Source of the DNA: an uncultured Actinomycetota bacterium
Lineage (GTDB): Bacteria; Actinomycetota; Actinomycetes; DATJPE01
DNA: 64,000 nucleotides
Reading direction: 5' to 3'
Assembly (NCBI GenBank): GCA_963820065.1
Contig: CAWFYM010000013.1
Span: forward strand, 5,835-69,834
Position numbers and translations under genes: made by a program. Of this stretch, positions 12,494-64,000 are shown piece after piece (the stretch's first letter is position 1; each line of letters opens with the position of its first letter). The notes beneath the pieces are model-generated. The model was not told the DNA's origin, made no database searches, and worked only from the letters and a program-made list of their open reading frames with translations.

Positions 12494-13090
12494 TTAGCTG
12501 TGCTTGCCCACCTCCCAGCCCTTGTCACCGATCAGCTGCGAGGCCTTGGCCGTGGGGAGTTCTTCCAGGGGGGTGCCGAGTGAGTCGTTCCATCGGTTGA
12601 AGACTCCGAACATGCAGACGACCGCGAGGATCTCCACGATCTCGTCCTCGGACCAATGTTCGGCCAGCGCCCGGTAGGACTCGTCCGTGACGGCGTTGGG
12701 CACCGAGGCGGCCTCCAGCGCGAAGTCGAGCGCGACCCGCTCCTTGGCGGTGAACAGCGGGCTGGTCGGATAGTCGTAGATCGCGGCCATCTTCTGGTCG
12801 TCGATGCCGTGGCGCGTGGCACTCACGGTCGTGTGGGCCTTGCAGTACTGGCACCCCGAGGCGAAGCTGGCCATGTGGGCGACGAGTCGCTTGAGACCTA
12901 GGTCGACGCGGCCGTTGGCGTCGAACACCGCCCGGTTCAGCCCGACCACGGCTTTGGCTATGCCGGGTACGCGCTGCATCGTGAGCAGGCTGTTGGGGAC
13001 GAAGCCGAGGGTGCGCGTGAAGTGTCCTAGCGCCTCTGCGAGGTCCGGGTCGGTGCATTCCTCCAACGGGATGGGGTCCATCCGCGCCAT
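12494..13090 (-). CDS. carboxymuconolactone decarboxylase / AhpD-like family protein
   Basis: 198 aa, CQYCKAHT (AhpD-like CxxC-H motif). Confidence 0.7.
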   Translation of the reverse strand: MARMDPIPLEECTDPDLAEALGHFTRTLGFVPNSLLTMQRVPGIAKAVVGLNRAVFDANGRVDLGLKRLVAHMASFASGCQYCKAHTTVSATRHGIDDQKMAAIYDYPTSPLFTAKERVALDFALEAASVPNAVTDESYRALAEHWSEDEIVEILAVVCMFGVFNRWNDSLGTPLEELPTAKASQLIGDKGWEVGKHS

Positions 13091-32573: not shown

Positions 32574-33535
32574 ATGGCTGGTGCGGTCGGGGGAGTCGGG
32601 CGACCGCCCCGGGGGGGCAACGGCGGGGGAGCCCCGCTGGTGGACCTGGCGCTCGCCCGCACGGCGATCGACGCCGTCGGTGAACGACGCAAGGACGCCT
32701 CGTGGGTCGCGGCGGCTTGGGCGGACCCGAGGGCCCGCGTCGTGCTGATCCACGACGGCCGGACCTACGTCTCCGGCGACCGACTGGCCGGCCTACGCCC
32801 CGACGCCGCGGGTGACGTCGAGCCGATCCTGCTCGGCGTCGACGCTGAGGGGGCGCCCTGGTTCGCCGCCCTGAGCGAGCAGCCGCTGCAGGACGTGCCG
32901 GAGCGGGCCGTGGCCGGACTGCGTGAGGTCGGCGCGCGCCTGGACGACCGCGACGCAGGGTTGTTCGTCCAGTCGGTCGCGCTCACCCACTGGCACCGGA
33001 CGCATCCGCACTGCGCCCGCTGCGGGGCCGCGACGGACATGGCGGCGGCCGGCCACACCCGCCGTTGTCCGGTCTGCCAGGCCGAGCACTTTCCGCGTAC
33101 GGACCCGGCGGTCATCGTGCTCGTCACCGACGATGACGATCGCGGGCTGCTCGGCCACAACCCCAGCTGGCCGGACCGGCGCTACTCCACTCTCGCCGGA
33201 TTCGTCGAGCCCGGGGAGTCCCTCGAGCGCGCCGTGCAACGAGAAGTGGAGGAGGAGGTCGGGGTCGCGGTGACCGACGTGTCCTACCTCGGGTCGCAGC
33301 CCTGGCCGTTCCCGGCCTCACTGATGGTGGGCTTCAGGGCCGCTGCCACGACCCGACCACGTTGCGCGTCGACGGCGACGAGATCAGCGACGCGGCCTGG
33401 TTCACTCGCGCCGAGTTGGAGGCGGCGGTCGTGTCGGGTGACGTGGTGCTCCCGCCAGGGCTGTCCATCGCCCGTAGGCTCATCGAGCACTGGTGGGGAG
33501 GCGCTCTGCCTGGTCGGGGAGTCGCCCGTTGGTGA
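32574..33535 (+). pseudogene. nudC: NAD+ diphosphatase NudC (zinc-ribbon + Nudix) carrying an apparent 1-nt frameshift near 33346-33350
   Basis: Up to ...SQPWPFPASLMVGFRAAAT the protein shows the NudC N-domain, zinc ribbon (CARCG...CPVCQ) and Nudix box (GFVEPGESLERAVQREVEEEVGV). The conserved C-terminus (DPTTLRVDGDEISDAAWFTRAELEAAVVSGDVVLPPGLSIARRLIEHWWGG, stop 33535) continues in the +1 frame. The listed 361-aa ORF reads through in the wrong frame. Confidence 0.7.
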
Positions 33536-48912: not shown

Positions 48913-48989
48913 CGCGGGGTGGAGCAGCTCGGTAGCTCGCTGGGCTCATAACCCAGAGGTCGCAGGTTCAAATCCTGCCCCCGCTACCA
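48913..48989 (+). tRNA. initiator tRNA-fMet (anticodon CAT), CCA encoded
   Basis: CGCGGGGTGGAGCAGCTCGGTAGCTCGCTGGGCTCATAACCCAGAGGTCGCAGGTTCAAATCCTGCCCCCGCTACCA. Near-identical to E. coli tRNA-fMet as recalled, including the 1:72 mismatch and three G:C pairs in the anticodon stem. Confidence 0.85.
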
Positions 48990-49003
48990 ACGTTTATGCA
49001 GGT

Positions 49004-49032
49004 CAGGGCCATGATCATCGATCATGGCCCTG
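49004..49032 (+). terminator. 13-bp perfect hairpin immediately 3' of the tRNA (CAGGGCCATGATC atc GATCATGGCCCTG)
   Basis: Perfect inverted repeat read directly. No T-tract follows, so function as a terminator is tentative. Confidence 0.35.
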
Positions 49033-49284
49033 ATTGCGTGTAGGCAGAATGTCAGCAAAGCCTGTCGGCGGATGTGGCCGGACAGCGGTGGATCCGGGTG
49101 GTTGGGTCCCGTTGTTGAGAGAGTCAGCGCCCCAGCCGCTCACCTCGCGGTCGTGGCGGCACATCGATCCCGAACTCGACTGGAGCTTGCGCCTGGCGTG
49201 GGCCGACAGCGGCTAAGCATGGATTACGTCCCGGGAGGGCATGAGTAATCGGAGCCGCTCCCGGCGGCTGGGGCCTCGCGGAGC

Positions 49285-49949
49285 CTAGGCAGGCGGTAGC
49301 CGGGCGGCCAGGTGCGCGTGAATGCGCTGGCGAGCCGCTCCGTCCAAAGGCCCTGAGGTCCGTAGCGCGGCCGCGGTGTCCTTGGGCCCGAGCAACGGGA
49401 CGTTGGCGATACGCAGCGTGGTCATCAACGGGAGGTACGCGCCAAGGAAGCACATCACCGGCTTTACGGGCAGGTGCTCTGCACCGGGTAGCGCGTCCAG
49501 CGCGTGTCTCACCGCGGTGACCTGCCTTGAGACGGACTGCAGGAGGTGAGTGCGGTCCCGCCCGCCGATGAACAGTTGCTCACGGGTCTCGGAGAACCAG
49601 CCGCCTGACCGGCGCACCTCGACCTTTCTTCTCGTCATAGTGCTTCGCGTCGATCACGTAGACCCCGGAGGGTGCGATAGCGATGTGATCGATGTCGCCG
49701 CGGCTCGAGCCGCCAAGTCGACGGTTGTGGAGGAAGAGGGCGGTTTCTCCGGCACGATTCTCCAAGGAAGCGGCGATCTCCCTCTACGATGGTGTCTGTG
49801 GCGAACGCCCGGGTGGATGCGGGTTCATCGGTGACGGCCAGGATGAGGCCACCGATGCGCGGGTGCTTAGCCCGTACCCGGCCCTCCCGAGCTGTCATAC
49901 GCTTCTCGTGCTCTCGCCGTAGCGACGCGCCCGGCGCACCCGGCTCCAC
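49285..49949 (-). pseudogene. NERD-domain nuclease gene split over three reading frames (two frameshifts)
   Basis: NERD signature GDIDHIAIAPSGVYVIDAKHY lies in ORF 49580..49765. Flanking pieces 49635..49949 and 49285..49638 are in the other two frames. Confidence 0.5.
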
Positions 49950-50162
49950 CGGGGTGCTCCGGGAGGTGGCGAGGAATCGCTGTCGGGACAGATGACTGAC
50001 TTCGTCGCCGTGTCCCAGCCGGCCTGAGCTCCTGCTGGCACCTCAACGCCACAGGCGCATGCGCCCGCGTAGCGGAGCCGCATCACCTTGACCCGGTCAC
50101 CCGATGCATCGCCCACCGTCCGGTCGACGGTGCCCGGAGCCCAGGACTTCAGCGCCGACAGG

Positions 50163-50418
50163 CTAGGCCGCCGGGTCTGGGTGCTGAGGTCTTTGGCGGT
50201 TGATGTAGTCGGTGAGGGCATCAGCCGGGATGCGTCGTAGCCGGCCGACGTGGATCGACTTGGATCTCGCCGACCGCGATCAGTTCGTAGAGCAGGCTAC
50301 GGCTGATCTCGAGGCGGCGGGCTGCCTCCACGACCGTGAGGAGCAGGCGATCGTCGGCTTGAACGGTCAGGTTCACAACGGGTGACGTGAAGTCGCCCGG
50401 CTGGCGACGATTGGTCAT
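50163..50418 (-). pseudogene. xis: excisionase-family (MerR-like HTH) DNA-binding protein with +1 frameshift
   Basis: MTNRRQPGDFTSPVVNLTVQADDRLLLTVVEAARRLEISRSLLYELIAVGEIQ then a one-nucleotide slip (extra A in ATCCAAGTCG). The canonical continuation SIHVGRLRRIPADALTDYINRQRPQHPDPAA* follows in the next frame. Confidence 0.6.
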
Positions 50419-50640
50419 CGTCGCGGTGATCAACTGCAGGGCGGGTGCGTTCGCGGGTGCTCGTCCCATTGCGGCTCTCCTCTGTCGGGGGTGCCACCGT
50501 GCCGGGGCCCGGTTGCAGCGGGGCTGGCGCGAGCGGCCGTGTGCTATACAGGTTCTGCGGCAGTAGCAATGGGCAGGCATCCCCCGGTTGTCATGGGGCT
50601 GGCGCGAGGCTGTCGCGACGGCCTGCCTCGACGCAGGTGA

Positions 50641-51519
50641 GTGGTGAATCCGCAGGTCGGAGGGCTCATGCGTTGGCGCCAGCCCCGTGACAACCCCCTC
50701 CGCGGAGCGTTCCCGGTGTCCGTCACCCCACCGGGAGGTTCTCCATGTTCACGACCGACCCCAGCACCCAAGTCCGTTCATCAGTTGGCACGCATGACGA
50801 CTGTGGTTCAGCTGTCTCCCGAGACCGCGAGGGTCTGCTCACGCTCCTGGAAGACATCGATCGAGCCGGCTGGAACTCCCGTCCCGCGGCGACGCTGCTC
50901 GAGTACATCCGTGCCACGGCGCCGCCCAAACGTTGCCGCCACGGGGCTTTCAGGCCCGGCCGCCGACCAGGCTGAAGCGACCGCATGGGAGGCAACCTGG
51001 GAGGCGATGACCCTGCCGTCCCTGAGGTCAGCGCGCTCGCCATGGGGGGTGCTCTGGGCGACCGCGCGACGCGCGGCTAATGGGCGAGCCGGGGCGGGGA
51101 TGTACTGCACGGACGTCCGAGCTGCCTGGCGGGCGGCCCGACCCGACGCCGCGGACAACGTCGCCAGCGATCAGGCAGCGGATACGCGAGGCGCCTTCCG
51201 TCACGACCCTCCGGTGAGTCTCACCGACCTTGAGGGGCGGGGAATGGGATTGCCTGCGTCCCCGACGTCGACCGGGACTGAGTCGAGCGACCTTCTGCCC
51301 ATCGTCGTGCGTGCTTTGGTCGAGGCGGGCTGGATGGAACGTCCGGCCGCGGAGATCGTCGATGCCGTCTCTGGTGGCTCCGCTGACGACAGCCGCACCC
51401 GTTCGGGAGCTCGCGGCGGCCTACAACTAGCGGAGGTCCTCGATGTCCCTCCGTGGCATGTTCGCGGGTCGACGGTCGTGATGCTCGGCCTTCAGGACTG
51501 CGGACTCTCGAGGCGCTGA
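50641..51519 (+). CDS. hypothetical ORF (unassignable, possibly degraded)
   Basis: 292-aa ORF with poor protein-like composition and no motif recognised in any frame of 50.6-51.8 kb. Confidence 0.15.
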   Translation: MVNPQVGGLMRWRQPRDNPLRGAFPVSVTPPGGSPCSRPTPAPKSVHQLARMTTVVQLSPETARVCSRSWKTSIEPAGTPVPRRRCSSTSVPRRRPNVAATGLSGPAADQAEATAWEATWEAMTLPSLRSARSPWGVLWATARRAANGRAGAGMYCTDVRAAWRAARPDAADNVASDQAADTRGAFRHDPPVSLTDLEGRGMGLPASPTSTGTESSDLLPIVVRALVEAGWMERPAAEIVDAVSGGSADDSRTRSGARGGLQLAEVLDVPPWHVRGSTVVMLGLQDCGLSRR

Positions 51520-52128
51520 TTGCCGACGGTCCGGATGTCCTGGCCGATCCCTGCATGCGTGCGGCCCTTCGTTCGACGGTCGTCGCTTGGTGGCCGAGCC
51601 CAGCCACAGCGGCGAGGCGGGCAGGAAGAACGACGTCATCGAGCCGAAGTCACGCAGCGTGATCTTGAGAAGTGAGAGGGGCCGACTCGCGTGTTGGCCC
51701 CTCTTCTGCACACCTCCCTGTATGACGCGAGCGCAAATTCTGCATAGCGGCACCACGAAAGGGTGGTCATCCACAGCTTCGACTCCTACGGGTTCCTTGT
51801 CTGTGGGACGGGTGTAGGAAGGCTCTCGAGACGGGGAAGGCCTCGCCAGCAGGTGGGTGATTCGCGTTTCGGAGGCGGTGATCCCTCATGCGAGGTGGAC
51901 GCCGCTGGCCTTCGGGTACTGGCGGCAACAGTGGCACTCGCCGTCGTCTTGGCGGCGAGTGCTTGCGACAGCACCTCCACCTCGCAGCCCGACTCTTCGA
52001 ACAGCTCGTCGCCAAGCCCTACCGCTACCACCACGGCTGCCGATGTGAGCAGCGTTACGGTCAACCGGGGAGTCTGCTCGAGCCAGGATGTAGACCGAGG
52101 GGTCACTCGTCGAGTTCCGCGATGGGAA

Positions 52129-52497
52129 CTATCTCGCGATGAGGCAGAACGGGTGTCCCGCCGGGTCGACGTAGACACGAAACCGTCCTTCTGTCGATGG
52201 TTGGTGCTCGTGCACCCGAGCGCCCGCGCTTAGCACCGAGGGCTCAGCGGTGCCGATGTCATCGACGGACAGATCAAGGTGGAACTGCTGTGGATGCTCA
52301 CCGCCAGGCCAGGTCGGTTCCACCCAGTCTGTGATGGCATGGAACGCCAAGGTCGGACGGGCGTCGGTGTCGTTCCCGGAGGTGATGCTCTTCGGTGGCA
52401 CCAGTTTGGCCCAAATCGGGCTAGCGCCTTCGTCCAACTCCCAACCAAGCACCGCCGAGTAGAACCGCGCTAGGACCAACGCGTCCAGGGCAGTCAA
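52129..52497 (-). CDS. VOC/glyoxalase-family protein
   Basis: 122 aa; FYSAVLGWEL...RFRVYVDPAGHPFCL typical of the glyoxalase/bleomycin-resistance fold. Confidence 0.5.
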   Translation of the reverse strand: MTALDALVLARFYSAVLGWELDEGASPIWAKLVPPKSITSGNDTDARPTLAFHAITDWVEPTWPGGEHPQQFHLDLSVDDIGTAEPSVLSAGARVHEHQPSTEGRFRVYVDPAGHPFCLIAR

Positions 52498-52599
52498 GGA
52501 TGATCAGCTCCAGTTTCGGTCGCCTTAACGTCCCATCGTTCATGATCCCGAACGGTAGCGACCGCTACCAAACGCAGTAGCTGCCAGCCGACCCCAACG

Positions 52600-53140
52600 G
52601 GGCCTGAAACGGTTGATGATGGCCGCGATGCGACGGCTGGCACCCGAGCTGCTGGTCACCGCGAAGACCGAGCGGTTGAAGCCCGGGGAGTTCTGAGGCA
52701 CCCTCGTCGAGGGCGAGATCGCCTCCCGGTCGAGTCCAACCTCCGCACCTGGATGAGGCGGGGCCGCGTTCCCCGTCGCCAAGCGACTCGAGGACTTCGA
52801 CGACACCGCCTTCATCGATCCCAACCGCCACGCTCGAAACCTTTCCTCCTCGGAGGGGATCCGCGCCGGCGAGAACGTCTGCCTCATCAGGCCCGCCGGC
52901 ACCGGGAAGTCCCACAACCTCATCGCGCTGAGCATCGCTGGGGCCGACACCGGTGGACAGAGTTCCGATACTTCACCGCCGCGGACTATTCAAGGCCCAC
53001 TACCGCGGACTGGCGGACAGCCACTCCGTCGGGGACCTCATCGACACACTGTTGCGTAACGAACTCCTCATCGTCGCCGAGCTCGGGTTCGGAAACAGAT
53101 GCGATCTCACTGGGGCCGCTCGGTTTGCCGTACCTTGATC
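52600..53140 (+). mobile_element. IS21-family IstB (ATP-binding helper) gene remnant, multiply frameshifted, no istA
   Basis: Fragments across three frames: ...RLEDFDDTAFIDPNRHARNL...ENVCLIRPAGTGKSHNLIALSIAG (Walker A), RYFTAADY, DLIDTLLRNELLIVAELGF (DExx box). Confidence 0.5.
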
Positions 53141-53203
53141 TTTCCAAGGCGAACTCAACGATTGTCCTCTCAAGGGCATCAAGGTTCGTAGGCGGGAGTG
53201 TTG

Positions 53204-53695
53204 CTAGCCACTGGACGACGAGCCCGTAGAGCATCGCGTCGAACTCCGACGTGAAGGGTACCGCTCTGTCTTCAGGTTCGAGGCCCTCCACAGCTTGCTC
53301 CAGAAGGGCGAACCACGCAGGCGCGCCGTTTCGCGATCACTTCTCGCAGGCGGGAATCCTCGAATGGCTTCGCCATATGCGGCGATCCAAACTTGCCAAC
53401 TCTCAAAGGTCTCGGAGTCGTGCGGCATCATTGCCCTAACGAACGCTTGGAGACGTTCCGGACCCTGCGCGTGCGCCTTAACTGCCGCGGCCGCACGAAC
53501 CTGTGGAGCCGCTCTGAAACGAATGTCAAGGTGCTGGCCAACATTTCGGCGCGATTCGGGGTAGTAGTGGTTGAGCATGCCCGTACTCACGCCGGCCTGA
53601 TTTGCCACGGCGCGCATCGTCGTCCCGGCAAACCCGCGCTGAGCAATCACGCGTGCAGCACCGTTGCAGATCTGCCTCCGGCGCACGTCCCCCAT
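53204..53695 (-). CDS. TetR family transcriptional regulator (C-terminus possibly disrupted)
   Basis: HTH RQICNGAARVIAQRGFAGTTMRAVANQAGVSTGMLNHYY. The 3' part abuts or overlaps the IstB remnant, and an alternative C-terminal frame exists (52986..53291). Confidence 0.45.
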   Translation of the reverse strand: MGDVRRRQICNGAARVIAQRGFAGTTMRAVANQAGVSTGMLNHYYPESRRNVGQHLDIRFRAAPQVRAAAAVKAHAQGPERLQAFVRAMMPHDSETFESWQVWIAAYGEAIRGFPPARSDRETARLRGSPFWSKLWRASNLKTERYPSRRSSTRCSTGSSSSG

Positions 53696-54049
53696 CCCCA
53701 GCCTGGGCACCTTCTGATCATCTCCTTCGCGCTGGCGGTCGCCATGCCGACGCACTTCGAGTGCGTCAGCATCATGTCAGGGAGCGCCGAGCCCCCGCAA
53801 AGTCCGGCCGCCGCCGTGAGTCACCTGGGCGCGACGACGAGCTATAGGGTGATCTCGATCTTGCTGGAGTACTGACATCGTTGAGACGCCGCGCTTGCTG
53901 CGACAGCTTGCTTGGCCACCGAGTCAGATGTGTGGACGATTGCGATGATCAGGCCACGACCTCGGCCGTCCGTTGCTGCTCTGACTCGAGTGACCGACCA
54001 GTCCCGCCGGCCAACTCTGGGTTGTCGCGCCCAGGGTCTGATGGGAGGC

Positions 54050-55010
54050 TCTCATTTCACGGAAAGATGGGGAGTTCTGGCAACAGGGGAAGTACCCGGA
54101 GGGGCTTCGGGAGCGGGCGATCCGGTCCCCGGGCGAGGCGAGGCGTGATCCGGTGACGCGGATGGGGGCGTTCCGGCGGGTCTGTGAGCAGTTGGGTCAC
54201 CCCCGAGACGTTGCGTAACTCGATCCAGCAGCCGTAGATCGATGAGGGAGCCAGGGCGGGCACCGTGGGCGGTGATGCTGTGCGCATTGCGCAGTTGGAG
54301 CGGGACAACCGTGGAGCTGCGACGCGCGAACGCGATTTGAAGAGCGCTTCGGCCTTCTTCGCGGCGAGCTCGAACGCCGACAGCGGTGATCGTCGACTAC
54401 ATCGACGCCCACAAGGACACATTCGGGGTCGAGCCGATCTGCGCAGTGCTGCAGGTCGCCCCTAGCACCTACTACGCCCACCGGTCCCGGCCGCCGTCTG
54501 GCAGGTGGGTCAGCGACGCCGCAACGTCCGCGCGGATCGGCAACGTCCCCCTGTCAACTACTGGGTCTATCGGGCGCGGAAGGTCCCATCCGAGTTGAAC
54601 CGCTCGGGACATTCGGTGGCCCGTCACACGGTTGAGCGGTCGATGCGAACGGCTTGGCTGCGCTAGATCTCCCGGGCGAAGGGACCCCACACGACCGTTC
54701 CCGGGCTGGGTCCCGATCATCGCCTGGACCTCGTTGACCGCGACCGCAATAACCAGCTCTGGGTCACTGACATCACCGAGCACCCGACCCGAGAAGGGCA
54801 AGGTCTACTGCGCCGCGGTCCTGGACGCCTTCAGCCGCCGCGATCGTCGGCTGGTCCATCGACTCCCGACCAGGACACCACTCTGGTCATCAACGCCCTC
54901 GACATGGCCATCCGCAACCGACGCCGCGACCCCGGCGGCATCGTCCACGCCGATCACGGCGTCCACGGCGTCCACGGCGGATTCAATCAATCGTCCCAAC
55001 ACCTCGTGAT
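54050..55010 (+). mobile_element. IS3-family insertion sequence remnant (orfA/orfB, multiple frameshifts)
   Basis: OrfA-like KYPEGLRERAI..., ...TPETLRNSIQQP, AQLERDNR...LKSASAFFAA. OrfB-like IVDYIDAHKDTFGVEPICAVLQVAPSTYYAHRSRPPS, NQLWVTDITEHPTREGKVYCAAVLDAFSRR. Pieces are spread over all three frames. Confidence 0.6.
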
Positions 55011-55058
55011 CATGGAGGTGTTCGATGGTTCGTCGTCAACAGGGCGGCAGATCGGGCA

Positions 55059-55400
55059 GTGCGTGAACCCGTGAGGTCGCCGGGGGTGCCGCCGCATCAG
55101 CGCGAGACGCAGCGCTTGTTCTGGATCGAGATCACCAACGGTTCAATTCCCGCGCAGGCGGCGATCGCGGTCGGCGGGCGGCAGGTCGGGCAGCGGTGGT
55201 TCCACAATGCGGGCAGCACGCCACCGTTCGATCTGGAGCCGTTGTCGGGCCGCTACTTGTTGTTTCCTGAGCGTGAGGAGATCGCCCTGCGCACGGCGCA
55301 TGGCGCATGGAGTCTGCGAGATCGCTCGCGCTATCGGTCGTCATCCATCGACGATCTCGTGGGAGGTGCGACGCATCAGTTCTTGCCCGTCAAGTCTGAA
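55059..55400 (+). mobile_element. IS30-family transposase 5' fragment (truncated, frameshifted)
   Basis: QRLFWIEITNGSIPAQAAIAVGGRQVGQRWF...GRYLLFPEREEIAL then, in the next frame, CEIARAIGRHPSTISWEVRR (IS30 N-terminal HTH consensus). No catalytic DDE region follows. Confidence 0.55.
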
Positions 55401-56592
55401 AGCATCGTGGCCATTCGTTGGATTGCTGCCTCACGGCCGTACGCTCTTGCACGACCAGACAGAGACAACGCTAACGCTGCTCGCTGAACCGGATCATGGA
55501 CCAAGCGGCGAATAGTATCGACGCCCGTGCCAGCATCACTCCAAGGGGTCACTACCCCCAAGTCGTAGTCGGACACTTCAACCGCTAGAGGGCTCCGGGC
55601 TCCAGACACGGCAAGAATAGGTGTACCAGCACAAATGGCCGGAATAAGTTTACTCGGAATGAACGATGAACCTGCGTCCTCGACCTCCGTAATTACGAAG
55701 ACTTCTGCGAGGAGCAGCTCCTGGACGAAGCGATCCTCGGGCAAGAAGTCCTCGAAAGAGAAGCGGCCATCGCACGATCTAGCGATCCAGTCTCGGACTG
55801 CGCCAGCTTCAGAACCAGCGCCGAAGATTGACAGCTGAAACGCCAGCGAGGTGTCTGAGGCGATGCGTTCACAGAATTCGATGAGGTTCTGGCTTTCGCC
55901 GAATATTCCCGGCATATAGCATCCTGAGAGTCCCAGGGACCGGAACCGCTGATCGAAAATCGCCTCGCATGTGTGCGAATTTTTCAATCGAAACTTCCAT
56001 GGATCTGTGTAGGAAGTTGGGGGAAGTATTCGACTGGGACAGATATCGTCGAACGATATTCTGTACCTGGTCGACCATGCCCGGCGCGATTGTGCATGTC
56101 TGGTTAGCCCGTTCAAAGAGAAATCTCTGAACGCACTTAGCAAGCCGGGAGCGTATGCCACCAGATAGAATATTACCTGCCGATGCAGCCTCTGCCGGGA
56201 TATCCTGCACATTGAGCAGAATTCGCTCGCCTCGCACGGCCTTTCGAACCGCTGCGATACCCAAGACACGAGATCAACGGGCAGTAGGCGATCACCACGT
56301 CGAACTGTCCTAGAGAGACAATGCCCCGGCATAGGCTAAGAAAGAATGAGATCTCTTGTACGACTCGTTGTTGTACCTTGGCAGGCGACGAAGGAATATA
56401 CATTCCATGACGGTTGATAATAAGAGCACCATTTTGTTCCACGTCGATGCGAATGCCGTTCCGACCGGACTTGTCACGCCATTCGGGGTAATATGGATAG
56501 GCCGTTTGTACGACAACGTCACTTCCGGTATCGACCAACCCGAGCGCTAGGTCGGTAATGACTGAAGCCCCGCCGCCGCGTACCAGGATCAA
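55376..56592 (-). pseudogene. GT4 glycosyltransferase (WcaI-like; PYYPEW motif) in three frame pieces
   Basis: N-terminal 56173..56592 (GGASVITDLALGLV...QTAYPYYPEW), middle 55869..56264, C-terminal 55376..~55900 (EDAGSSFIPSKLIPAICAGTPILAV) in different frames. Confidence 0.55.
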
Positions 56593-56699
56593 AGAGGTTC
56601 GTGACGATCAGTATTCGCATCGGCCAGAACCATAGCCGCCGATTGTCGGGCCGGGCCCGGGGGCGATGAAGCTCACTCTGGCACCAACCAGCGGCGGCG

Positions 56700-57965
56700 C
56701 GGAGACGGCGCCAAGAACATTCGTGGGCGGGGCTCAGGAAAGGTTACGACCATACATCATGGAAGCACGTCGCGGTCGATGTTTCGCATGTCGCAGCCGC
56801 AGTGGCCATTGCATGCCCTTCTCGGCATGCGCGCCGATGTCGCCTTATCTCAAGAGTGCCCGTCGGTCGAGTGGGCCTATGTAGGGTATGGCTTCGATGA
56901 AGGCCGCGTTCGAGGGACGACTTGTCTTGCTCTAGGTCTCGATGCCGATGGTAACGGCGGCATTCAGACATTTCTTGGTTGCTTACGTGAAGCTCTAGAG
57001 GCTCTAGCGAAGGAGACGCGGTGACCCGCCAGGGCAGATGCTTGCTGCGTAGTCAATTCACCCGCAATGCTCGATTCTGTCTGATCATCAGCGCCATAAA
57101 GTCGGTCCTCCGCTGTCCGCCTGACACTCTCATAGTTGCGCACAGAAATCTCCTTCCCTTAGCGTATGTGCTTCGGCGACTTCGTCCTTCGATTGGCGTT
57201 TGTCTGTTCCTCTATGGACGCGAGGTCGAACCGATGTTCTCGCTTCCGGCAAGGTGGTTCCTTCTGGAAGAGAGCGCCGTCTGGTGTGTCGCCATTTTCC
57301 GAGTCCACTAAACGAGTTGCATGCGCTGCCGGCGTGCCGCAACACCGAATAGCGGTCATTCCTCTAACCATTCCACCCTCTCAAATTTCAGAAGCGCCCG
57401 ATATCTTGCTCGCGGCGAAGCCCCGGCCGGGTCTGGCTGTGGTTACGGTGGCGCGACTTGAGTCGGGCAGCGAACGTCAAGAATGTCGATCTTCTGATCG
57501 AAGCAATCGCAAGCCCTGAACTTGATGGGCGACGTATTACTCTGGACATTGTTGGAGACGGAGACCGGCGGGACGAGTTGGAGAAGCTCGCGCACGCCCG
57601 AGGCGTGGGCGACCGAGTTTCTTTCAATGGTTCGGTATCCGACGTGGAGCGCGAGCAGTACCTACCTCGCTTCCGACCTATTTTGCCTTCTGTCGGAACA
57701 GGAGGGCTTTGGGTTGGTGGTGCTCGAGGGATGGCAGCACGGCCTCCGGGTGCTGGTCGCAGACCGACCCGCTCTGAACGAAGTCGTGGAGTCGGGCCGT
57801 AACGGACTCGCTGGAGAGCCACGTGTCAGCGATGTATCGACTGCGTTGGCATGGTTCCACGACAATCCCGATGAGCGGCTCTCAATGGCCCGAATGGGCT
57901 TGCCGCGCTGGGCAGTCAATTTTCTGGATCGATCTTCCAGGAAGCCGTTCGGCGTGAAGTGCTAA
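56700..57965 (+). pseudogene. GT1/GT4 glycosyltransferase with at least 2 frameshifts
   Basis: Pieces: ...AVIPLTIPPSQ...LAVVTVARLES / NVDLLIEAIASPELDGRRITLDIVGDGDRRDELEKLAHARGVGDRVSFNGSVSDVEREQYL / YLASDLFCLLSEQEGFGLVVLEGWQHGLRVLVADRP...RMGLPRWAVNF. The frames switch near 57480 and 57665. Confidence 0.55.
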
Positions 57966-59157
57966 CCGCTCCGAATCCAGCGCTCGTAGATCTCGTGCGG
58001 GTGATTCCGTCCTACACCTCTACGTATGGAGGCCCGGCGGTCGCCCTTCAAGCGATCACATATGAGCTAAATGAACAGGATATTCGCACTGCGATCATTT
58101 CCGCACTGATTCACCTCGGGCAACAGTTGCTTGGAGTTCCCGAGGGCTCCATCAAGATTGCCATAGGGCCCGGCGTCGCGAGTTTGGACCTGGAGCCCAC
58201 TCGCCGTAAGACTTGGCTTGTCCCTCAGGTCCCCGAGCGTTGTTGTTCACGGGATTTGGGGGAGCCAGGTGGCCGACGGAGTGAGGCTCGCGGCTGGGAA
58301 ATTGGCGCCGACTGCTTTGTGTACGCGCATGGAATGCTGGACCAGCACTTCCTTGAGAGGGATCGCCGGAGCCGCCTAGTCAAACAGCTGGTCTATCGCC
58401 TTTCGACTCGGCGGAATCTCGAGCGAGCGACGGCAATTCTGTGGACCTCTGAGCAGGAAGCAGCGGCGTAGCACCGGCTACCCTGGACTTTCAATTCTGC
58501 CGTCGTTTGTAATCCAATATGGCGCAGCACCGATCGGTCAGCCGAAGAACTCCGCAAGTCACGAGACGCCGAGGAACGGGCTAACCCCGTAAATACATAC
58601 TCTTCCTCGGTCGAGTGGTCGAAAAGAAGCGTCCCGCCGAATTGCTGATCGCCTTCGCGCTGATTGCCCGCGAGACTCGAGTGCGCCCTTGTCTTCGCAG
58701 GATCCGTCGATTCTTCTACGCGGGCGGTCATCGAACGGCTTGCCCGGAACTATGGTCTTGAGGACCGCGGTCGTGTGGGCCGGCCATGTAGACGGAAAGC
58801 AAAAGGACGAACTGTTTCAGAATGCGGCGGTGTTCTGTCTCCCGTCATCGCAGGAAAGCTTCGGAGTCCGCGGTTGCCGAGGCGCTTTCGACGGGATGTC
58901 CGGTTGTGCTCTCGGCGGATGTCGCGCTCGCTCCGTTGGTGGCGGACTACGGGGCCGGGGAAGTCGTGGATGGGCGGGATCCCGAATCCGTCGCTCGCGG
59001 GCTCTTTCGACGGGTGTTACGCGAAGGTCGTGCCAACTACGCCGACCTTGCCAGGAACATGTACGAAAACGAGTGCTCTCTGAGCGCTGCTGCCGAGTCG
59101 CTACTGGAGGCGGTCGGCCTCAGTGTCTCGACCAAGGAGCGTAGCGCCAAAGGCTGA
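57959..59157 (+). pseudogene. GT4 glycosyltransferase with frameshifts
   Basis: N-terminal VIPSYTSTYGGPAVALQAITYELNEQDIRTAII (57959..58471). C-terminal pieces DELFQNAAVFCLPSSQESFGV and VAEALSTGCPVVLSADVALAPLVADYGAGEVV... lie in other frames (58689..59157). Confidence 0.5.
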
Positions 59158-59319
59158 GTCCTACGTCTCGTGGCCCAGCAACCGGCTCGTCTCGCACAGC
59201 GTGACCTCGATGCGGTGCGGATGGACTGGATTGGTCGCGCTCCCGAACGGGATCTCAGGGCTGGCTCGGCGAACTGTCGCCCCGGGCACCGGAAGGCACC
59301 ACGTGATGCTCGTCATCGC

Positions 59320-60791
59320 TCAGGTGGAGGCGCTCAACATCGGGCTAAGCACTTGTTTGACGCAGGACTGGATCGCCCCTAGCGGCATGAGTAGGCGGTG
59401 TCCGCGTGGACGCAGGTTCTTCATCGTTCCCGTCGCCCGGCATGCGCATGCGCATGCATTGTGACACGGCCGCCCAACTCGCGGAGGCTCGAGTGCATCG
59501 TTCCGGGAAGCGCAGCCTGGAACGCTCTGGACCCATCTACGGTCAACAGTGCAGCCAGTCCCACCGATCCTGACCCGACCTATACTCACTGTCGACGGCG
59601 CGCGTGTGAATCCTGCGTAGAAATAGAGCGCACATAGCGAAAGGAGTGCACATCCTGCGTGAGCGATCGGCCACCATCGCTCTGGATTCGTTCCGAGAAA
59701 TGCGATTAAGGGAACCAAGAGGAAGAACAATGCGATCAAACGGAAACCGATAAGGCGCCGCGTTCCGGTATGTCTTCAGTTCGGCCACCAGTGGCACGTG
59801 ACCGATATACGCAATCTGCCATATCGACGCCCCGAGGAAAAGGAATGAAATACCACCGGGTATCCGCGGCAGAGCGCTGTGCGCCAAAGGGAGCAGCGGA
59901 ACCATTACAACATACCAGGCAGCTCCTGCGCTCATGGCTACCGCTATCGACGCTTTCGACCGAACAGCACGAGCCAGACTTGAGAGTCAGAATCGTGAGC
60001 ACGGGACCGAGAAAAATCAATGGGCCGGCCAACACCAACGTGGCTCGAGAAGTTGCGAAGCCTTGAACGGAGAGCGCGTAGGCCAAGATTGCAAGGTGAA
60101 TATAGCCAATCGACTGCGCTACGACGGCATCGACAACAAGCGGCCCGGCGGTAGGGTGGATCCATACTTTGTCATGTTCGATAAAGGTTGCTGCCAACGC
60201 AGCATCTCTGCACCCACAGCTTGGCGCTCTCGCCTTATGATGGCCCGACACCAAAATGACCAGTTCGACAGCTACGACGAAGAGCAGCCAACCCAGAATC
60301 AGACCAACTGAACTCGACTTTGTGATGGCGAAGGCCAGGATAGTTGTCGGCCCAAGAAGGAGGAGCCACAAGCAGTCGAGTGCTAAAGCTGAGCGTGGCC
60401 GTGCGGCAAGGAGCGCATACCGCCTCACCTCAAACCGACACAGAGCAGGAACTAGTAAGGCAACGCCGACCACCGTAGCTGGGCCGAACGTGCACAGCAC
60501 CACGCCTACCAATCCAGATATGGCGACCCCCAACTGTAAGCGGCTTGTAGACATGACGGGCGAACGGTTGGCCAGTTGATACTCTGCAAGGGAAGAACGA
60601 GCAACTGATTGAACGACTAGTATGGAACCCCAGGCAAGAGTGAAATTTCTGAACTGGGATGCACTGAGCGAGAGTGCAATAATCTGTGGTAAGAGATTAG
60701 TAATCGACGAAACCGCTTGATCCAAAAATGTGGTAGGGGCAGACGCTGTATTGGAAATTCTGCCCCGCCTACCGCTAGCTATCAGTGCCAT
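59320..60791 (-). pseudogene. Wzx-like polysaccharide flippase (polytopic membrane protein) in three frame pieces
   Basis: Hydrophobic multi-helix ORFs 59736..60791, 59543..59935 and 59320..59739 are contiguous on one strand in different frames. The N-terminus resembles MOP/Wzx flippases. Confidence 0.4.
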
Positions 60792-62410
60792 TCGGTCTCC
60801 TTGGCCGCTGAAGCTTCGCCTCTCCGTTTAGTTGATAAAGCGGCGAGCTGCGACCACGACAATGCAGCGGAGCTGTGAATTGTTGGGCCAACTTAAGCAG
60901 TCGAAGCAGGGAACGGCGAGTCTCGTTGGCAGGGGCCAAGCGGTATGGCGAGACTGCGTCGCGACCACTTCGGACCCCGCATTTAGCCACAGCATCCGTC
61001 GACGGTAGACGTTCATCTTTACCCAGTGTGTTCGACGTGAGGACCACGTGGCGATTTTTCGACGCCTTGCGAACGAGATGTGATGACCGGGGACCTTGGG
61101 GAGACGGACCAGTGGGCAGAACTGCGCCTATGGCAAACACCAAGGCGCTCGTGAGAAGCATGCCTCTGAAGCGCTGACGCGAGGCCAGCCGACAAAATCG
61201 TGGCTCCACTGCGAGCGATAGTCCATCCCCAGAGGGAGAATAGTCCAACTACAATTGGAGAACCTGTCCGTCGGCTGAAAGCGCGGTCGAGGGCACTGAA
61301 TAGAAAGCCTAGGCAGGCACTTCCTGCAACAACTAGTGGAACGCCACCGTTGGCGTACAGTTCAAGTGGATGGCCGACCACCACGCTGGTAAACGAGTCG
61401 GAAGGACCTACCAACCCGACGTGGCGCCCGAATATGTGTCCGAACAGACCAGGATCGGGCTTCGAAGTATCCCAGGAATCGCGGCACCGGTGTATAGACG
61501 ATCCAGGCGAGTGTCTCACCGGCATCCGCTGGCCAGCCCTCGCCTCCCCGTTCCAGACTTTTACCTACGGACACAGTGTCAGACAATCTTCCCAGCACAC
61601 TTTCGAGGCCAGCGCCAAGAAGCTCGTCTTGCCAGTGAGTGAAGGTCTGGATTGTGGTCGAGGCGAGATGCTGGATTGGTTTTCTCGATAAGTCTGTGTG
61701 TTGGTCTCCACGATATGAGCTGATCAATGGAAATACCACGAACGTCGAGACGATTGCGACGAGCGCGATCGCCCTACGTGGAACTTTGCCGCCCGTCACG
61801 ACCGTCGAGATCAGCAGAACAATGAAGGGCAGAAGAACGTTCTCGCGAAGTCTTCCGCTCGGTAGTGCGATAGCGATTTCAAATACAAACAGTGCCACAA
61901 CAAGGTTACTTCCACGCCGAGAGGGTTGCCTGACTTGCGTACTCGCTACCGCTGCCCAATACGATCAAAGGAAGAAGGGAGAAGAGTCGACAGAACCCAG
62001 CCACTGTTTGACGAAACGAGGCTCTCTGAGCGATGGAAGAATGACCCCCTGGCGATTTCCACTAAGCGGGCAATCGTCCCTATTAGGAAGAGAAATGCTG
62101 CAAGTTCTGGCCGCAGAGGTTTCCAACGTTGGACCGGGCCTAGTCGTCTCGACTTCCGACTCTGGGTTCGGTCGAAAAGCCACGAACCGAAAAATCTTCC
62201 AGAGACATGGAGCGCTCCGAGAGCTATGGCTGCGGCCAGAATGTGTTCGTCGAGTTGGTAGCGAGAATCGGACGGAGGCGTGATTCCGAAGTAGAGACCG
62301 CCGAGTCCGTAGGCGACGCCGAAATATCGTGCGGACATACCAATTATACTCGCACCGCCGAGATTCGCCTCCGCCCCAAATGAGCGGACCCGGCGCTGCT
62401 CCAGGTCCAT
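60775..62410 (-). pseudogene. Wzy-like O-antigen/EPS polymerase (membrane protein) in about four frame pieces
   Basis: Consecutive hydrophobic ORFs 61946..62410, 61362..61898, 61019..61525 and 60775..61248 on the minus strand. Assignment rests on context and topology only. Confidence 0.3.
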
Positions 62411-62516
62411 GTACTCACCGATATTACGAGCGTCGCGCTCAATACGAGCAGGGTCATGGCGTGAGAGATTTGCTTGTTGGGTGGTGGCGATTCCGTTGAA
62501 AGGACAACCTGATGAC

Positions 62517-63101
62517 CTAGCGCTCTTCGTAATGTGTGTAATCGTGCCCTGGTCGGGGCGACGCGGCCGTGGAGGGTGCTAGGACTCTTGAAGCGCTCGG
62601 GACTGAACGATGAACAAGTGCCGTCGCCCCGATGAGCGTGTCTGAGCCAATAGTGACGCCACGGAGAATTGTTGCGCGTGCACCAAGCCAAGTTCGATCG
62701 CCAATTCGTACTGGAGCGTTGTCATACTCGAAGGAATGCGAGTCAAATTGATGACTTCCAGTACAGATCAGTACATCCTGAGAAATGCACGTGTTCGACC
62801 CAATTTCGACCGTCTCTAGATTGAGTATCCACGCTCCTTCTCCTATCCAACTGTCGTGTCCGACTTCGAGTTTCCACGGCCAGTGAATAGCCGCACCCGA
62901 TGGCGGATCTGAACACCTAAGACCGATTTGGGCCCCGAACTTGCGCAATATCCACAGCCGGAGGCGATTGGGTACGAACCACGGTTGTACAAGAACGGGC
63001 TGGATCAGAAGCCATGATGCCTGTACCCATACAGAACGGCCCTTCTCGTAGCCGCCTTTCCCGAAGGTGCTGAGGACCATCCGTGCAGAGTCGAGACCCA
63101 T
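62517..63101 (-). CDS. wcaF: WcaF-like colanic-acid/EPS O-acetyltransferase (left-handed beta-helix hexapeptide family)
   Basis: Start ATG 63101 (MGLDSARMVL...). LRLWILRKFGAQIG...HWPWKLEVGHDSWIGEGAWILNLETVEIGSNTCISQDVLICTGSHQFDS...APVRIGDRTWLGARATILRGVTIGSDTLIGATALV aligns with E. coli WcaF as recalled. The listed 430-aa ORF is an upstream over-extension. Confidence 0.7.
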   Translation of the reverse strand: MGLDSARMVLSTFGKGGYEKGRSVWVQASWLLIQPVLVQPWFVPNRLRLWILRKFGAQIGLRCSDPPSGAAIHWPWKLEVGHDSWIGEGAWILNLETVEIGSNTCISQDVLICTGSHQFDSHSFEYDNAPVRIGDRTWLGARATILRGVTIGSDTLIGATALVHRSVPSASRVLAPSTAASPRPGHDYTHYEER

Positions 63102-64000
63102 GCCGGTTTCAGGAGCCCTCGGGGATCTGTACATGCGCCGCAAAGTACCAGCACAGCTTTGCGTCGGCGGTTGTTCGGTCTCGATTGGAGCAGGAGCCCC
63201 GGGGGCCGGTTCGCTATTCCGAGTCGGCGTGCTCCGAGCGCAGTTCGGATTGCGCTGCCGAACTCGCGGCGAAGAGCACTGGTAGATCTGTGCAGCCGGA
63301 CTGGTGCATCGTTGGCGCTCTTCTGCCACGTCAATGTACTGGTCGAAATTCGAACGATTCGCCTGCCCTCTAAGGGGCGAGGGTGTTGGAGCGCGGGCGG
63401 GCTGCTGTGCTGGTCGACGCAGTGGTGTACCGGTGGTTGACCGACCGTGCGTGTTCTTGACCCGACTCGAGCGGGCGTCTATGCGTCCGATACGTCCCGC
63501 TATCTCGTCCACGACGGCGTCTGGGGTGCTCGCGCTCGCGCCCTGCGCGAGTGCGAACCTGGGTTCGACTCGACTGCACGGTGCACTTTCAGGGTCAGTG
63601 CGCCGATCGGGCACCCGGCGGTGTGGCGTGGGCGAGCTGACCGGACCCAGTCCCGAGGCGGCTGCGAGCGCTGCGGCTCCACTGACGGGCTCGCCTATGA
63701 ATGGCACTTCACCATGCAGAACAACAGCGACGAAATGACCCTCCGGGACTATGCCAGAGTGGTGCGGGCGGCGGAAGTCGATCGTCGTCGCGGCGGTGCT
63801 GATCGCCACGGTGGATCGCCCTGGCGCTGTGAGACGCTACGAGACCCCGATCTACGTGGCATCGGCCGGACGTCCTCGTCCAGCCTCGAGGGCCAGACAG
63901 GTTGTTCGACTCGCAGGTGACTGCGCTGAACAACCGGGCCGTCCAGAACCAAGATCCAGGTGATCGAGGGTTGAGGCCATCCCCGCAGGCGTAGGCCGAC

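What the first reader, a model, noticed from the sequence alone, without database searches (positions are those of the whole stretch)
49285..63200. Exceptionally high density of frameshifts in island genes versus intact core
Almost every recognisable gene between 49.3 and 62.4 kb is split across 2-4 frames: NERD, xis, IstB, IS3 orfA/orfB, IS30 fragment, three glycosyltransferases, Wzx-like and Wzy-like. In the 49 kb of core only nudC is visibly frameshifted. Two explanations are possible. One is genuine pseudogenisation of a horizontally acquired island. The other is systematic indel sequencing/assembly errors concentrated in this lower-GC region. Two inspected slips sit in 2-nt homopolymers, which fits an error origin but does not prove it. 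The WcaF-like acetyltransferase gene (62517..63101) in the same block is intact.
Basis: partly seen in the sequence, partly recalled or inferred. Interest (0 to 1): 0.55.

Follow-up and report, generated by a model that had tools for sequence, protein, structure and literature searches.

The report
Frameshift-riddled island: mostly assembly noise
The many broken genes after the tRNA-Met gene are really in this sequence, but a second public copy of the same island shows that about half of the breaks (most of those in the sugar-polymer genes) are one-base assembly errors, and the rest are ordinary decay of old insertion-sequence remnants and a few other genes.

Summary
A codon model trained on the core% of the core as coding, with one frameshift (nudC). 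It calls only 13-15% of the block 49.0-64 kb as coding. Frameshift-aware alignments find about 35 frame changes in about 9 kb of recognisable genes.

The cause is mixed. A second public contig, ENA ERZ25039539 contig_6142 (L085), carries the same island. It matches window 49705-64000 at 97.4% identity, with 240 mismatches and 109 indel differences. In 99 of the 109, the extra base is in the window. Each contig is broken where the other is intact. The WcaI-like glycosyltransferase is a full 412-aa ORF in L085 but is cut by five insertions in the window. The glyoxalase gene and the N-domain of GT2 are intact in the window but broken in L085. These private indels look like consensus errors, probably from a Nanopore-only metagenome assembly in a poorly supported contig tail.

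A second class is present in both contigs:
- seven frameshifts in the IstB relic;
- two frameshifts, a stop codon and a truncation in IS3 orfB, plus a shift and a stop in orfA;
- two frameshifts in TetR;
- two in GT1 and three in GT2.

These are probably genuine decay. Nothing here is biologically novel.

The parts
48913..48989 (+). tRNA-Met (CAT); the island begins about 65 bp downstream, near 49057
   Evidence: ARAGORN. The same gene-tRNA synteny is seen in L001-L004. Only 48991-49057 is conserved with relatives.
49288..50083 (-). NERD-domain gene, full length, with 3 frameshifts (about 49971, 49784, 49630). Two coincide with private differences from L085: a 5-nt insertion at 49979 and a 2-nt deletion at 49782.
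   Evidence: L085 keeps the CPAC zinc-ribbon motif that is garbled in the window.
50262..50340 (-). Partial HTH_17 (excisionase-like) match
   Evidence: Pfam E = 0.011, HMM 1-27/51. L085 has a 198-aa ORF with HTH_17 here.
52132..52497 (-). Glyoxalase_6 gene, intact in the window and broken in L085 (which lacks bases at 52282 and 52487)
   Evidence: Pfam 66 bits, HMM 7-106/106
52581..53090 (+). IS21-family IstB relic with 7-9 frameshifts in 510 nt; seven are shared with L085. No IstA was detected upstream.
   Evidence: GC3 is 0.89 after frame correction.
53204..53755 (-). TetR-family regulator with two frameshifts, both shared with L085. The only private indel difference inside it is at 53557; two more (53357, 53361) lie here but were not assessed.
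54105..54963 (+). IS3-family relic. OrfA (54105-54399) has one shift and one stop. OrfB (54386-54963) has 4 frameshifts, the stop at 54665, a 4-codon deletion, and truncation at residue 200 of 306. The insertions at 54842 and 54872 are private to the window; the rest is shared.
55312..55378 (+). IS30-type HTH_38 fragment only
   Evidence: Pfam HMM 22-43/44
55376..56620 (-). WcaI-like glycosyltransferase (GT3), broken in the window by five private insertions (55889, 56019, 56043 x2 nt, 56257, 56581). It is an intact 412-aa ORF in L085.
   Evidence: NF007640 scores 144.5 bits over HMM 1-405/411 in L085, against 34 bits over HMM 246-405 in the window.
56896..57960 (+). GT4 glycosyltransferase GT1 with 5 frameshifts in the window. 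Three are private (57044, 57282, 57478). Two remain in the best-of-both hybrid (about 57005 and 57659).
57959..59157 (+). GT4 glycosyltransferase GT2. The N-domain is intact in the window and broken in L085. The private window insertions are 58769, 58868 and 59001. The shared shifts are 58469, 58554 and 58678.
59546..60791 (-). Five private indel differences. Its first 275 residues are 96% identical to P0260 of L085.
61000..62410 (-). Membrane protein with weak similarity to oligosaccharide repeat-unit polymerases ('Wzy-like'). It is split over 3 frames in the window. It becomes one ORF when alleles of the two contigs are combined.
   Evidence: the hybrid gets no better family hit
62517..63134 (-). 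WcaF-family acetyltransferase. The ORF is open, but about 10 codons are garbled by two compensating private insertions (62890, 2 nt; 62919, 1 nt).
   Evidence: NF007797 scores 161 bits in the window and 179 bits in L085
33334..33350 (+). The single frameshift in the core, in a nudC-like gene

Best explanation
The block from about 49.06 kb to at least 64 kb is a strain-variable island inserted next to tRNA-Met. Its left part (62-68% GC) holds the NERD and excisionase-like genes, a glyoxalase, a TetR regulator, and relics of IS21 (IstB), IS3 and IS30. Its right part (56-60% GC) is a colanic-acid-like exopolysaccharide cluster.

The extreme frameshift density has two layers.

Layer 1 is about half of all frame breaks, and roughly 70-80% of those in the polysaccharide genes. 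These are single-base consensus errors private to this assembly. They are nearly all insertions, they are placed at random with respect to homopolymers, and they occur about once per 300 nt. The most likely reason is inferred, not shown. The contig probably comes from a Nanopore-only metagenome assembly, and the island lies in a poorly supported tail. That tail is strain-variable, has low read depth, and ends at most 6.9 kb before the contig end. Polishing could not correct it.

Layer 2 is reproducible in an independent contig of the same island, so it is probably genuine. It comprises the old, heavily decayed IS relics, the TetR gene, and one to three frameshifts each in two GT4 glycosyltransferases.
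For: Shown:
- A second contig (L085, ENA ERZ25039539 contig_6142) aligns to window 49705-64000 in one HSP at 97.37% identity, with 240 mismatches and 109 indel events.
- 99 of the 109 events have the extra base(s) in the window. I estimate a two-sided binomial p of about 1e-19 (my own calculation, not a tool result).
- Over 52-63 kb there are 72 such events and none the other way.
- In the near-identical 10 kb (52-54 kb and 55-63 kb) there are 65 indels and only 58 mismatches. That is about 1 indel per mismatch, against roughly 1 per 10 in bacterial mutation spectra (from established knowledge).
- The breaks are complementary. GT3 is an intact 412-aa WcaI-family ORF in L085 (144.5 bits, HMM 1-405/411) and is cut by 5 insertions in the window. 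The glyoxalase gene and the GT2 N-domain are intact in the window and cut in L085.
- Homology-guided allele choice removes 3 of 5 frameshifts in GT1, 2-3 of 5 in GT2 and 2 of 4 in IS3 orfB.
- ORF-guided allele choice raises the top ORFs from 439/363/319 codons to 599/530/501 codons.
- Frame-corrected GT1 keeps family-conserved residues as well as intact homologues do: 2 of 34 violated, against 4.7 +/- 2.2 in controls. It has no in-frame stop.
- Lesions shared by both contigs: IstB x7; IS3 54555, about 54778, the stop at 54665 and the truncation; TetR x2; GT1 57659; GT2 58469 and 58678.

Context:
- The window's proteins are on record from one NCBI/ENA contig of 70,890 bp.
- The nearest relatives are Microflora Danica long-read MAGs.
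- Those MAGs were made with metaFlye plus one round of Medaka, without short-read polishing. Their authors note Nanopore-linked loss of coding density at low coverage (PMC12313526). R10.4 needs about 40x coverage for near-finished consensus (PMC9262707).
Against: - I could not fetch the source record or any reads. The platform, the read depth and the position of the window in the contig are therefore inferred.
- The opposite polarity of private errors is unexplained by any mechanism I could test. They are insertions in the window and deletions in L085.
- The two contigs may come from one sample. In that case cross-mapped reads could make some 'shared' lesions non-independent.
- About 30 of the 109 differences could not be assigned to either contig.
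- Some private differences could be true strain differences. The two copies diverge by 2-6% in the patches 49.7-52, 54.8-55.1 and 63-64 kb.
- Frameshift positions called against homologues of 31-40% identity (GT1, GT2) are uncertain by about 10-20 nt. A few may be alignment over-fitting, for example 52689/52699, 58554 and about 57005.
Confidence: 0.7

Rival explanations
1. All frameshifts are genuine. The island is a heavily pseudogenised, horizontally acquired block in this strain, and the differences from contig_6142 are true strain differences.
For: Structural decay is real and shared: the truncated IS3, an IS30 fragment, and IstB without IstA. In-frame stops exist (54665; orfA). The IS3 relic has radical replacements at 17 positions that are conserved even in a distant intact IS3. 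The two copies do differ by true substitutions in patches.
Against: It would require one lineage to gain about 50 single-base insertions and the other about 50 deletions, each inactivating different genes of the same cluster, while only about 0.5% substitutions accumulated. Frame-corrected GT1 shows no excess of changes at conserved sites and no stop. The stop-to-frameshift ratio in non-IS genes is about 0-1 to 20. The 56-60% GC of the cluster argues for recent arrival, which leaves too little time for about one indel per 250 nt.
Confidence: 0.08
2. All frameshifts are technical, including those shared by both contigs. In reality the island is essentially intact, and the shared lesions are systematic or non-independent consensus errors.
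For: Both contigs are demonstrably error-rich. About 4 of 14 shared sites lie at G4, C4 or C5 runs, for example the C5 run at 54547-54551. The IstB relic has 7 shared frameshifts but no shared stop, and its GC3 is 0.89. If both contigs come from one sample, reads may have been shared in polishing.
Against: Seven coincident errors within 510 nt of IstB are not credible when the core has at most 1 in 45 kb. The shared stop codon, the 4-codon deletion and the truncation of IS3 orfB cannot be indel errors. Most shared sites are not in homopolymers. The divergent patches show that the two contigs represent different alleles.
Confidence: 0.15
3. The tail is a chimeric join. DNA of another, rarer organism was attached to this core at a repeat, so the poor quality reflects the low abundance of a foreign genome.
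For: GC drops from about 70% to 56-60% beyond the IS3/IS30 relics. contig_6142 carries the island alone and ends at the junction. Contigs of relatives break just after the same tRNA.
Against: tRNA genes are classic island integration sites. The left part of the tail has the host-like codon signature, with GC3 of 0.86-0.89. Quality already drops at 49.06 kb, 5 kb before the GC change. Nothing tested shows a false join.
Confidence: 0.07

Closest known systems
Indel consensus errors of long-read (Nanopore-only) assemblies that fragment gene calls
   Same: One-base indels give truncated or split ORFs. The effect is worst where coverage is low. It is non-reproducible between independent assemblies. 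The nearest relatives' MAGs were built this way.
   Different: The density is far higher than usual for polished contigs: about 1 per 130 nt between the two copies, against a few per 100 kb. It is confined to a 15-kb tail, is not homopolymer-driven, and is almost purely insertional in this contig.
Decayed insertion-sequence remnants in tRNA-linked genomic islands
   Same: The IS21 IstB, IS3 and IS30 pieces show frameshifts, a stop codon, an internal deletion and a truncation next to a tRNA gene. All are reproducible in a second contig.
   Different: No integrase or second att repeat was found within the window. The IstB relic has unusually many frameshifts relative to stops.
Colanic-acid-type (Wzx/Wzy-dependent) exopolysaccharide clusters
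   Same: It has a WcaF-family acetyltransferase, a WcaI-family glycosyltransferase, two GT4 glycosyltransferases and polytopic membrane proteins. In L085 it continues with a Wzz/tyrosine-kinase gene and a Bac_transf gene.
   Different: Scores stay below the NCBIfam cut-offs (161-179 against 192; 144 against 276). The flippase is not recognisable, the polymerase has only a weak hit, and two GT4 genes carry reproducible frameshifts.

Membership tests
Assembly/consensus artefact (non-reproducible indels) | The lesions are absent from an independent assembly of the same locus | tested here: met
   109 indel differences in 14.3 kb against contig_6142. The ORFs are intact in the other copy: GT3 in L085; glyoxalase and the GT2 N-domain in the window.
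Assembly/consensus artefact (non-reproducible indels) | The mutation spectrum is unlike biology: an excess of indels over substitutions and a one-directional polarity | tested here: met
   65 indels against 58 mismatches in the near-identical 10 kb. 99 of 109 events share one polarity.
Assembly/consensus artefact (non-reproducible indels) | Low or heterogeneous read support at the affected sites | not testable with these tools
   No reads are available and the source record could not be fetched.
Genuine pseudogenes | The same disabling lesion is found in independent sequence of the locus | tested here: met
   Met for IstB (7), IS3 (2 frameshifts, a stop and the truncation), TetR (2), GT1 (57659) and GT2 (58469, 58678). 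Not met for GT3, the Wzy-like gene, the WcaF-like gene, or 2 of 3 lesions in NERD.
Genuine pseudogenes | Relaxed selection: nonsense codons and changes at conserved residues | tested here: inconclusive
   Seen in the IS3 relic: a stop, and 17 changes at sites conserved even in a distant intact IS3. Not seen in GT1: 2 of 34 conserved sites changed, against 4.7 in controls.
tRNA-integrated genomic island | The insertion abuts a tRNA 3' end and is absent from relatives | tested here: met
tRNA-integrated genomic island | An integrase gene and a direct repeat of the tRNA 3' end at the far border | tested here: not met
   No integrase domain in six-frame Pfam scans. No second copy of the tRNA 3' end in the window. 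The far border lies outside the window.
IS3 family element | OrfA and OrfB with an HTH_21 and an rve (DDE) domain | tested here: met
   HTH_21 and rve HMM 2-75/102 are detected after frame correction. Identity to hundreds of IS3 transposases is 60-65%. The element is truncated and therefore dead.
Wzx flippase / Wzy polymerase | A significant match to the family models | tested here: not met
   Wzx-like: no hit in Pfam, NCBIfam or the 5.8-billion-protein search. Wzy-like: only TIGR04370 at E = 0.001, 18 bits against a cut-off of 40.

The most novel reading that the evidence does not exclude
The one-directional single-base changes are biological. Some lineage-specific process would add single bases to island DNA in this strain and remove them in the sister copy. 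Alternatively, the reproducible shifts in the two GT4 genes (57659, 58469) could be sites of programmed or phase-variable frameshifting that control polysaccharide production.
Probability: 0.03. Interest if true: 0.55.

Novelty: not a real feature. Interest (0 to 1): 0.1.

Why it matters
Its value is mainly as a quality warning. A public MAG contig has a core accurate to about one indel in 45 kb, followed by a 15-kb tail with roughly one indel per 100-300 nt. Gene calls there are unreliable: a 430-aa 'protein' around the WcaF-like gene, and a 318-aa fragment of a 412-aa glycosyltransferase. Pseudogene counts and island annotations from this tail should not be trusted.

It also shows that combining two noisy contigs of the same locus can separate errors from real decay without reads. 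Biologically, what remains is ordinary: an exopolysaccharide island next to tRNA-Met with dead insertion sequences and a few probably real pseudogenes.

Tried and rejected
- Similarity to plasmids (megablast) gave only 60-150-bp IS3 matches.
- Regions downstream of the same tRNA in relatives L001-L004 share nothing with the island and have normal codon periodicity. There is therefore no locus-wide artefact in relatives.
- Looking up the source contig through the window's own proteins failed.
- Searches for close homologues of GT1 (best 36%) and IS3 (best 65%) gave no near-identical comparator.
- A chimeric Wzx+Wzy query gave no hit.
- Exact cluster look-ups found no third copy of the island.
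- The core-trained codon HMM cannot count frameshifts in the tail, because the in-frame runs are too short. It serves only as a contrast with the core.
- The conserved-site test on IS3 is confounded by relatedness of the homologue set.
- ORF-length-guided allele choice depends on the starting contig for about 30 events and sometimes prefers open but wrong frames. I therefore relied on homology-guided choice.
- Homopolymer slippage as the main cause is rejected.
- Two apparent nonsense codons in IstB were reinterpreted. The site at about 52690 reads as a Leu codon in L085. The second falls inside the short out-of-frame stretch between the shared shifts at 52734 and 52759.


Full report
**Setting.** The window is a roughly 70% GC actinobacterial core up to 48.9 kb. 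A tRNA-Met gene follows at 48913-48989, and then a block of lower and uneven GC runs to the end of the window: 62-68% up to 55.3 kb and 56-60% beyond. The core gene upstream of the tRNA and the tRNA itself are syntenic in the nearest relatives, which are uncultured soil Actinomycetota MAGs (L001-L004). Nothing beyond about 65 bp after the tRNA is shared with them. The block is therefore a strain-variable island starting near 49,057. No integrase domain and no second copy of the tRNA 3' end were found inside the window.

- Pfam searches of stop-masked six-frame translations show single domains distributed over different frames.
- After manual or alignment-guided frame correction the same genes give contiguous domain matches with much higher scores. 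For GT1, Glycos_transf_1 rises from 37 and 40 bits in two frames to 95 bits. For GT2 it rises from 27.5 and 20 bits to 107 bits. NERD extends from HMM 8-59 to 4-110 of 111. TetR_C_6 extends from 3-35 to 3-107 of 115. IstB rises from 37 to 76 bits.
- I wrote a protein-to-DNA aligner that allows frameshifts. It finds 3 in NERD, 7-9 in 510 nt of the IstB relic, and 5 each in GT1 and GT2. In 578 nt of the IS3 orfB relic it finds 4 frameshifts, one stop and a truncation at residue 200 of 306.
- The frame assignments are supported by a signal that the aligner does not use. After correction, codon-position GC is 0.62/0.49/0.89 (IstB) and 0.64/0.51/0.86 (IS3), as crisp as in core genes. The uncorrected stretch gives 0.61/0.71/0.68.
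- As a control, a codon HMM trained on the core.8 of 48.9 kb of the core as coding, in 45 segments. It finds exactly one frameshift there, at about 33334 in the nudC-like gene. It accepts only about 2.0-2.3 kb of the 15-kb tail as coding.

**Where the sequence comes from.**
- Exact look-ups show that nine of ten core proteins and three tail ORFs are on record from a single NCBI/ENA contig of 70,890 bp. The window is therefore 64 kb of that contig, and the bad tail ends at most 6.9 kb from a contig end.
- The record itself could not be fetched.
- The closest relatives are Microflora Danica long-read MAGs with Flye-style contig names.
- That catalogue was assembled from Nanopore reads with metaFlye and one round of Medaka, without short-read polishing. 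Its authors report Nanopore-linked loss of coding density in low-coverage MAGs (PMC12313526). R10.4 needs about 40x coverage for near-finished consensus (PMC9262707).
- That the window has the same origin is an inference.

**The decisive comparison.**
- A full HMMER search with the 351-aa tail ORF found a 336-aa protein that is 96% identical over residues 1-275. It lies on ENA ERZ25039539 contig_6142 (37,071 bp; locus L085), which carries the same island in the opposite orientation.
- blastn gives one HSP: window 49705-64000 against L085 21011-6828, at 97.37% identity, with 240 mismatches and 109 indel events.
- contig_6142 ends about 650 nt beyond the fetched locus. That corresponds to about window 49,055, which is the island/core junction.
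- The mismatches are concentrated in three patches (49.7-52, 54.8-55.1 and 63-64 kb; 2-6%). The two contigs are therefore different alleles.
- In the remaining 10 kb there are 58 mismatches but 65 indels.
- 99 of the 109 indels have the extra base(s) in the window: 81 of one base and 14 of two. Over 52-63 kb the count is 72 to 0.
- 52 of the 81 one-base events lie in runs of length 1, which is what random placement gives.
- An indel-to-substitution ratio near 1, a polarity of 99:10 and indifference to homopolymers are not a biological divergence pattern.

**Who is wrong where.** The breaks are complementary.
- The WcaI-like glycosyltransferase is a 412-aa ORF in L085. It matches NF007640 end to end (144.5 bits, HMM 1-405/411). 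In the window, five insertions (55889, 56019, 56043, 56257, 56581) leave only the C-terminal 164 codons in frame, scoring 34 bits.
- Conversely, the glyoxalase gene and the N-domain of GT2 are intact in the window and cut in L085.
It scores 161 bits in the window and 179 bits in L085.
- I let homology choose the allele at each difference. The window is wrong at 57044, 57282 and 57478 (GT1), at 58769, 58868 and 59001 (GT2), and at 54842 and 54872 (IS3). L085 is wrong at six sites in GT1 and at 58730, 54443 and 52815.
- The best-of-both sequences retain 2 frameshifts in GT1 (about 57005 and 57659). They retain 3 in GT2 (58469, 58554, 58678), 2 plus the stop in IS3 orfB, and all 7-9 in IstB.
- ORF-guided choice over the whole island needs at least 36 L085 alleles and at least 41 window alleles. 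It raises the longest ORFs from 439/363/319 to 599/530/501 codons. It also fuses the three pieces of the Wzy-like gene into one ORF.
- Wherever homology decides, the window's private errors are insertions, with one exception (the 2-nt deletion at 49782 in NERD). L085's private errors are deletions. I cannot explain this opposite polarity. Different depth or polishing state is a guess.

**What is probably genuine.** These lesions are identical in both contigs:
- seven frameshifts in IstB;
- in IS3 orfB: 54555, about 54778, the stop at 54665, a four-codon deletion and the truncation;
- the shift and the stop in IS3 orfA;
- both TetR shifts;
- 57659 in GT1;
- 58469 and 58678 in GT2.

Coincident random errors at this density are not credible when the core has one event in 45 kb, and a stop codon and a truncation are not indel errors. 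The IS3 relic also differs from its family at 17 positions that are conserved even in a distant intact IS3. By contrast, frame-corrected GT1 keeps conserved residues as well as intact homologues do (2 of 34 violated, against 4.7 +/- 2.2) and has no stop. Its decay, if real, is recent. Some shared sites lie in G4, C4 or C5 runs, so a minority could be systematic errors.

**Tally.** In the genes that can be analysed, the window has about 35 frame changes. About 17 are private and about 17 are shared. In the polysaccharide genes, roughly 70-80% are private. In the IS relics and TetR, most are shared.

**Conclusion.** The 'exceptional' excess is largely an assembly artefact laid over an ordinary, partly decayed island. 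I put 0.70 on this two-layer reading, 0.15 on all frameshifts being technical, 0.08 on all being genuine, and 0.07 on a chimeric join. Read pile-ups would settle it.

**Gene content, for the record.**
- Left part: NERD (49288-50083, minus strand), a partial HTH_17, Glyoxalase_6 (52132-52497), the IstB relic (52581-53090), TetR (53204-53755), the IS3 relic (54105-54963) and an IS30 HTH fragment (55312-55378).
- Right part: the WcaI-like glycosyltransferase (55376-56620), GT4 genes at 56896-57960 and 57959-59157, two polytopic membrane proteins (59546-60791 and about 61000-62410) and the WcaF-like acetyltransferase (62517-63134).
- Only the second membrane protein has any family support, and it is weak (polymerase).
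- In L085 the cluster continues with a Wzz/tyrosine-kinase gene, a Bac_transf fragment and DUF4012.

Noticed in passing
window 33334-33350 (gene about 32640-33508, + strand): The only frameshift in 44.8 kb of core coding sequence lies in a nudC-like gene. The downstream part keeps the NudC C-terminal motif and a GC3 of 0.81. The site is not in a homopolymer. Whether it is a real mutation or a background consensus error is undecided.
   Followed up: partly
L085 1-6828 (beyond the window's right end): The polysaccharide cluster continues with a Wzz/GNVR plus ParA-like tyrosine kinase (553 aa), a 77-aa Bac_transf fragment and a DUF4012 protein (390 aa). None of these has a cluster-mate at 90% identity or more from the 70,890-bp contig.
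   Followed up: partly
L001 13580-14173; L002 13566-17947; L085 right end: Contigs of related genomes tend to end just after the same tRNA-Met: 0.5 kb after it in L001 and 4.3 kb in L002. contig_6142 ends on the island side of the same junction. The locus seems to be an assembly break point, presumably because strains differ there.
   Followed up: partly
window 49705-64000 against L085 21011-6828: Private indels have opposite polarity in the two copies, and positions are random with respect to homopolymers. They are insertions in the window and deletions in contig_6142, giving 99 of 109 events in one direction. No mechanism was established.
   Followed up: partly
window 49.7-52.0, 54.8-55.1 and 63.0-64.0 kb: The two island copies show patches of 2-6% mismatch, with indels in both directions. 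The rest differs by about 0.5%. This suggests true allelic divergence or recombination in these segments.
   Followed up: no
window 52581-53090: The IstB relic has seven reproducible frameshifts in 510 nt, yet no reproducible in-frame stop, 62% identity to a Gordonia IstB, and a GC3 of 0.89. That is an unusually indel-rich decay pattern if it is genuine.
   Followed up: partly
window 62517-63809 (- strand): The public gene call here is a 430-aa protein (P0266). The frame upstream of the roughly 200-aa WcaF-like gene happens to stay open, which illustrates how the tail misleads gene callers.
   Followed up: yes
L082 (ERZ25039539 contig_29870) against window 10.6-13.1 kb: A 504-kb contig from the same sample as contig_6142 shares gene order with the window only on one side of the CMD-family gene (window 12494-13090). 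Beyond it the neighbourhoods differ, so there is a rearrangement between the two relatives.
   Followed up: no
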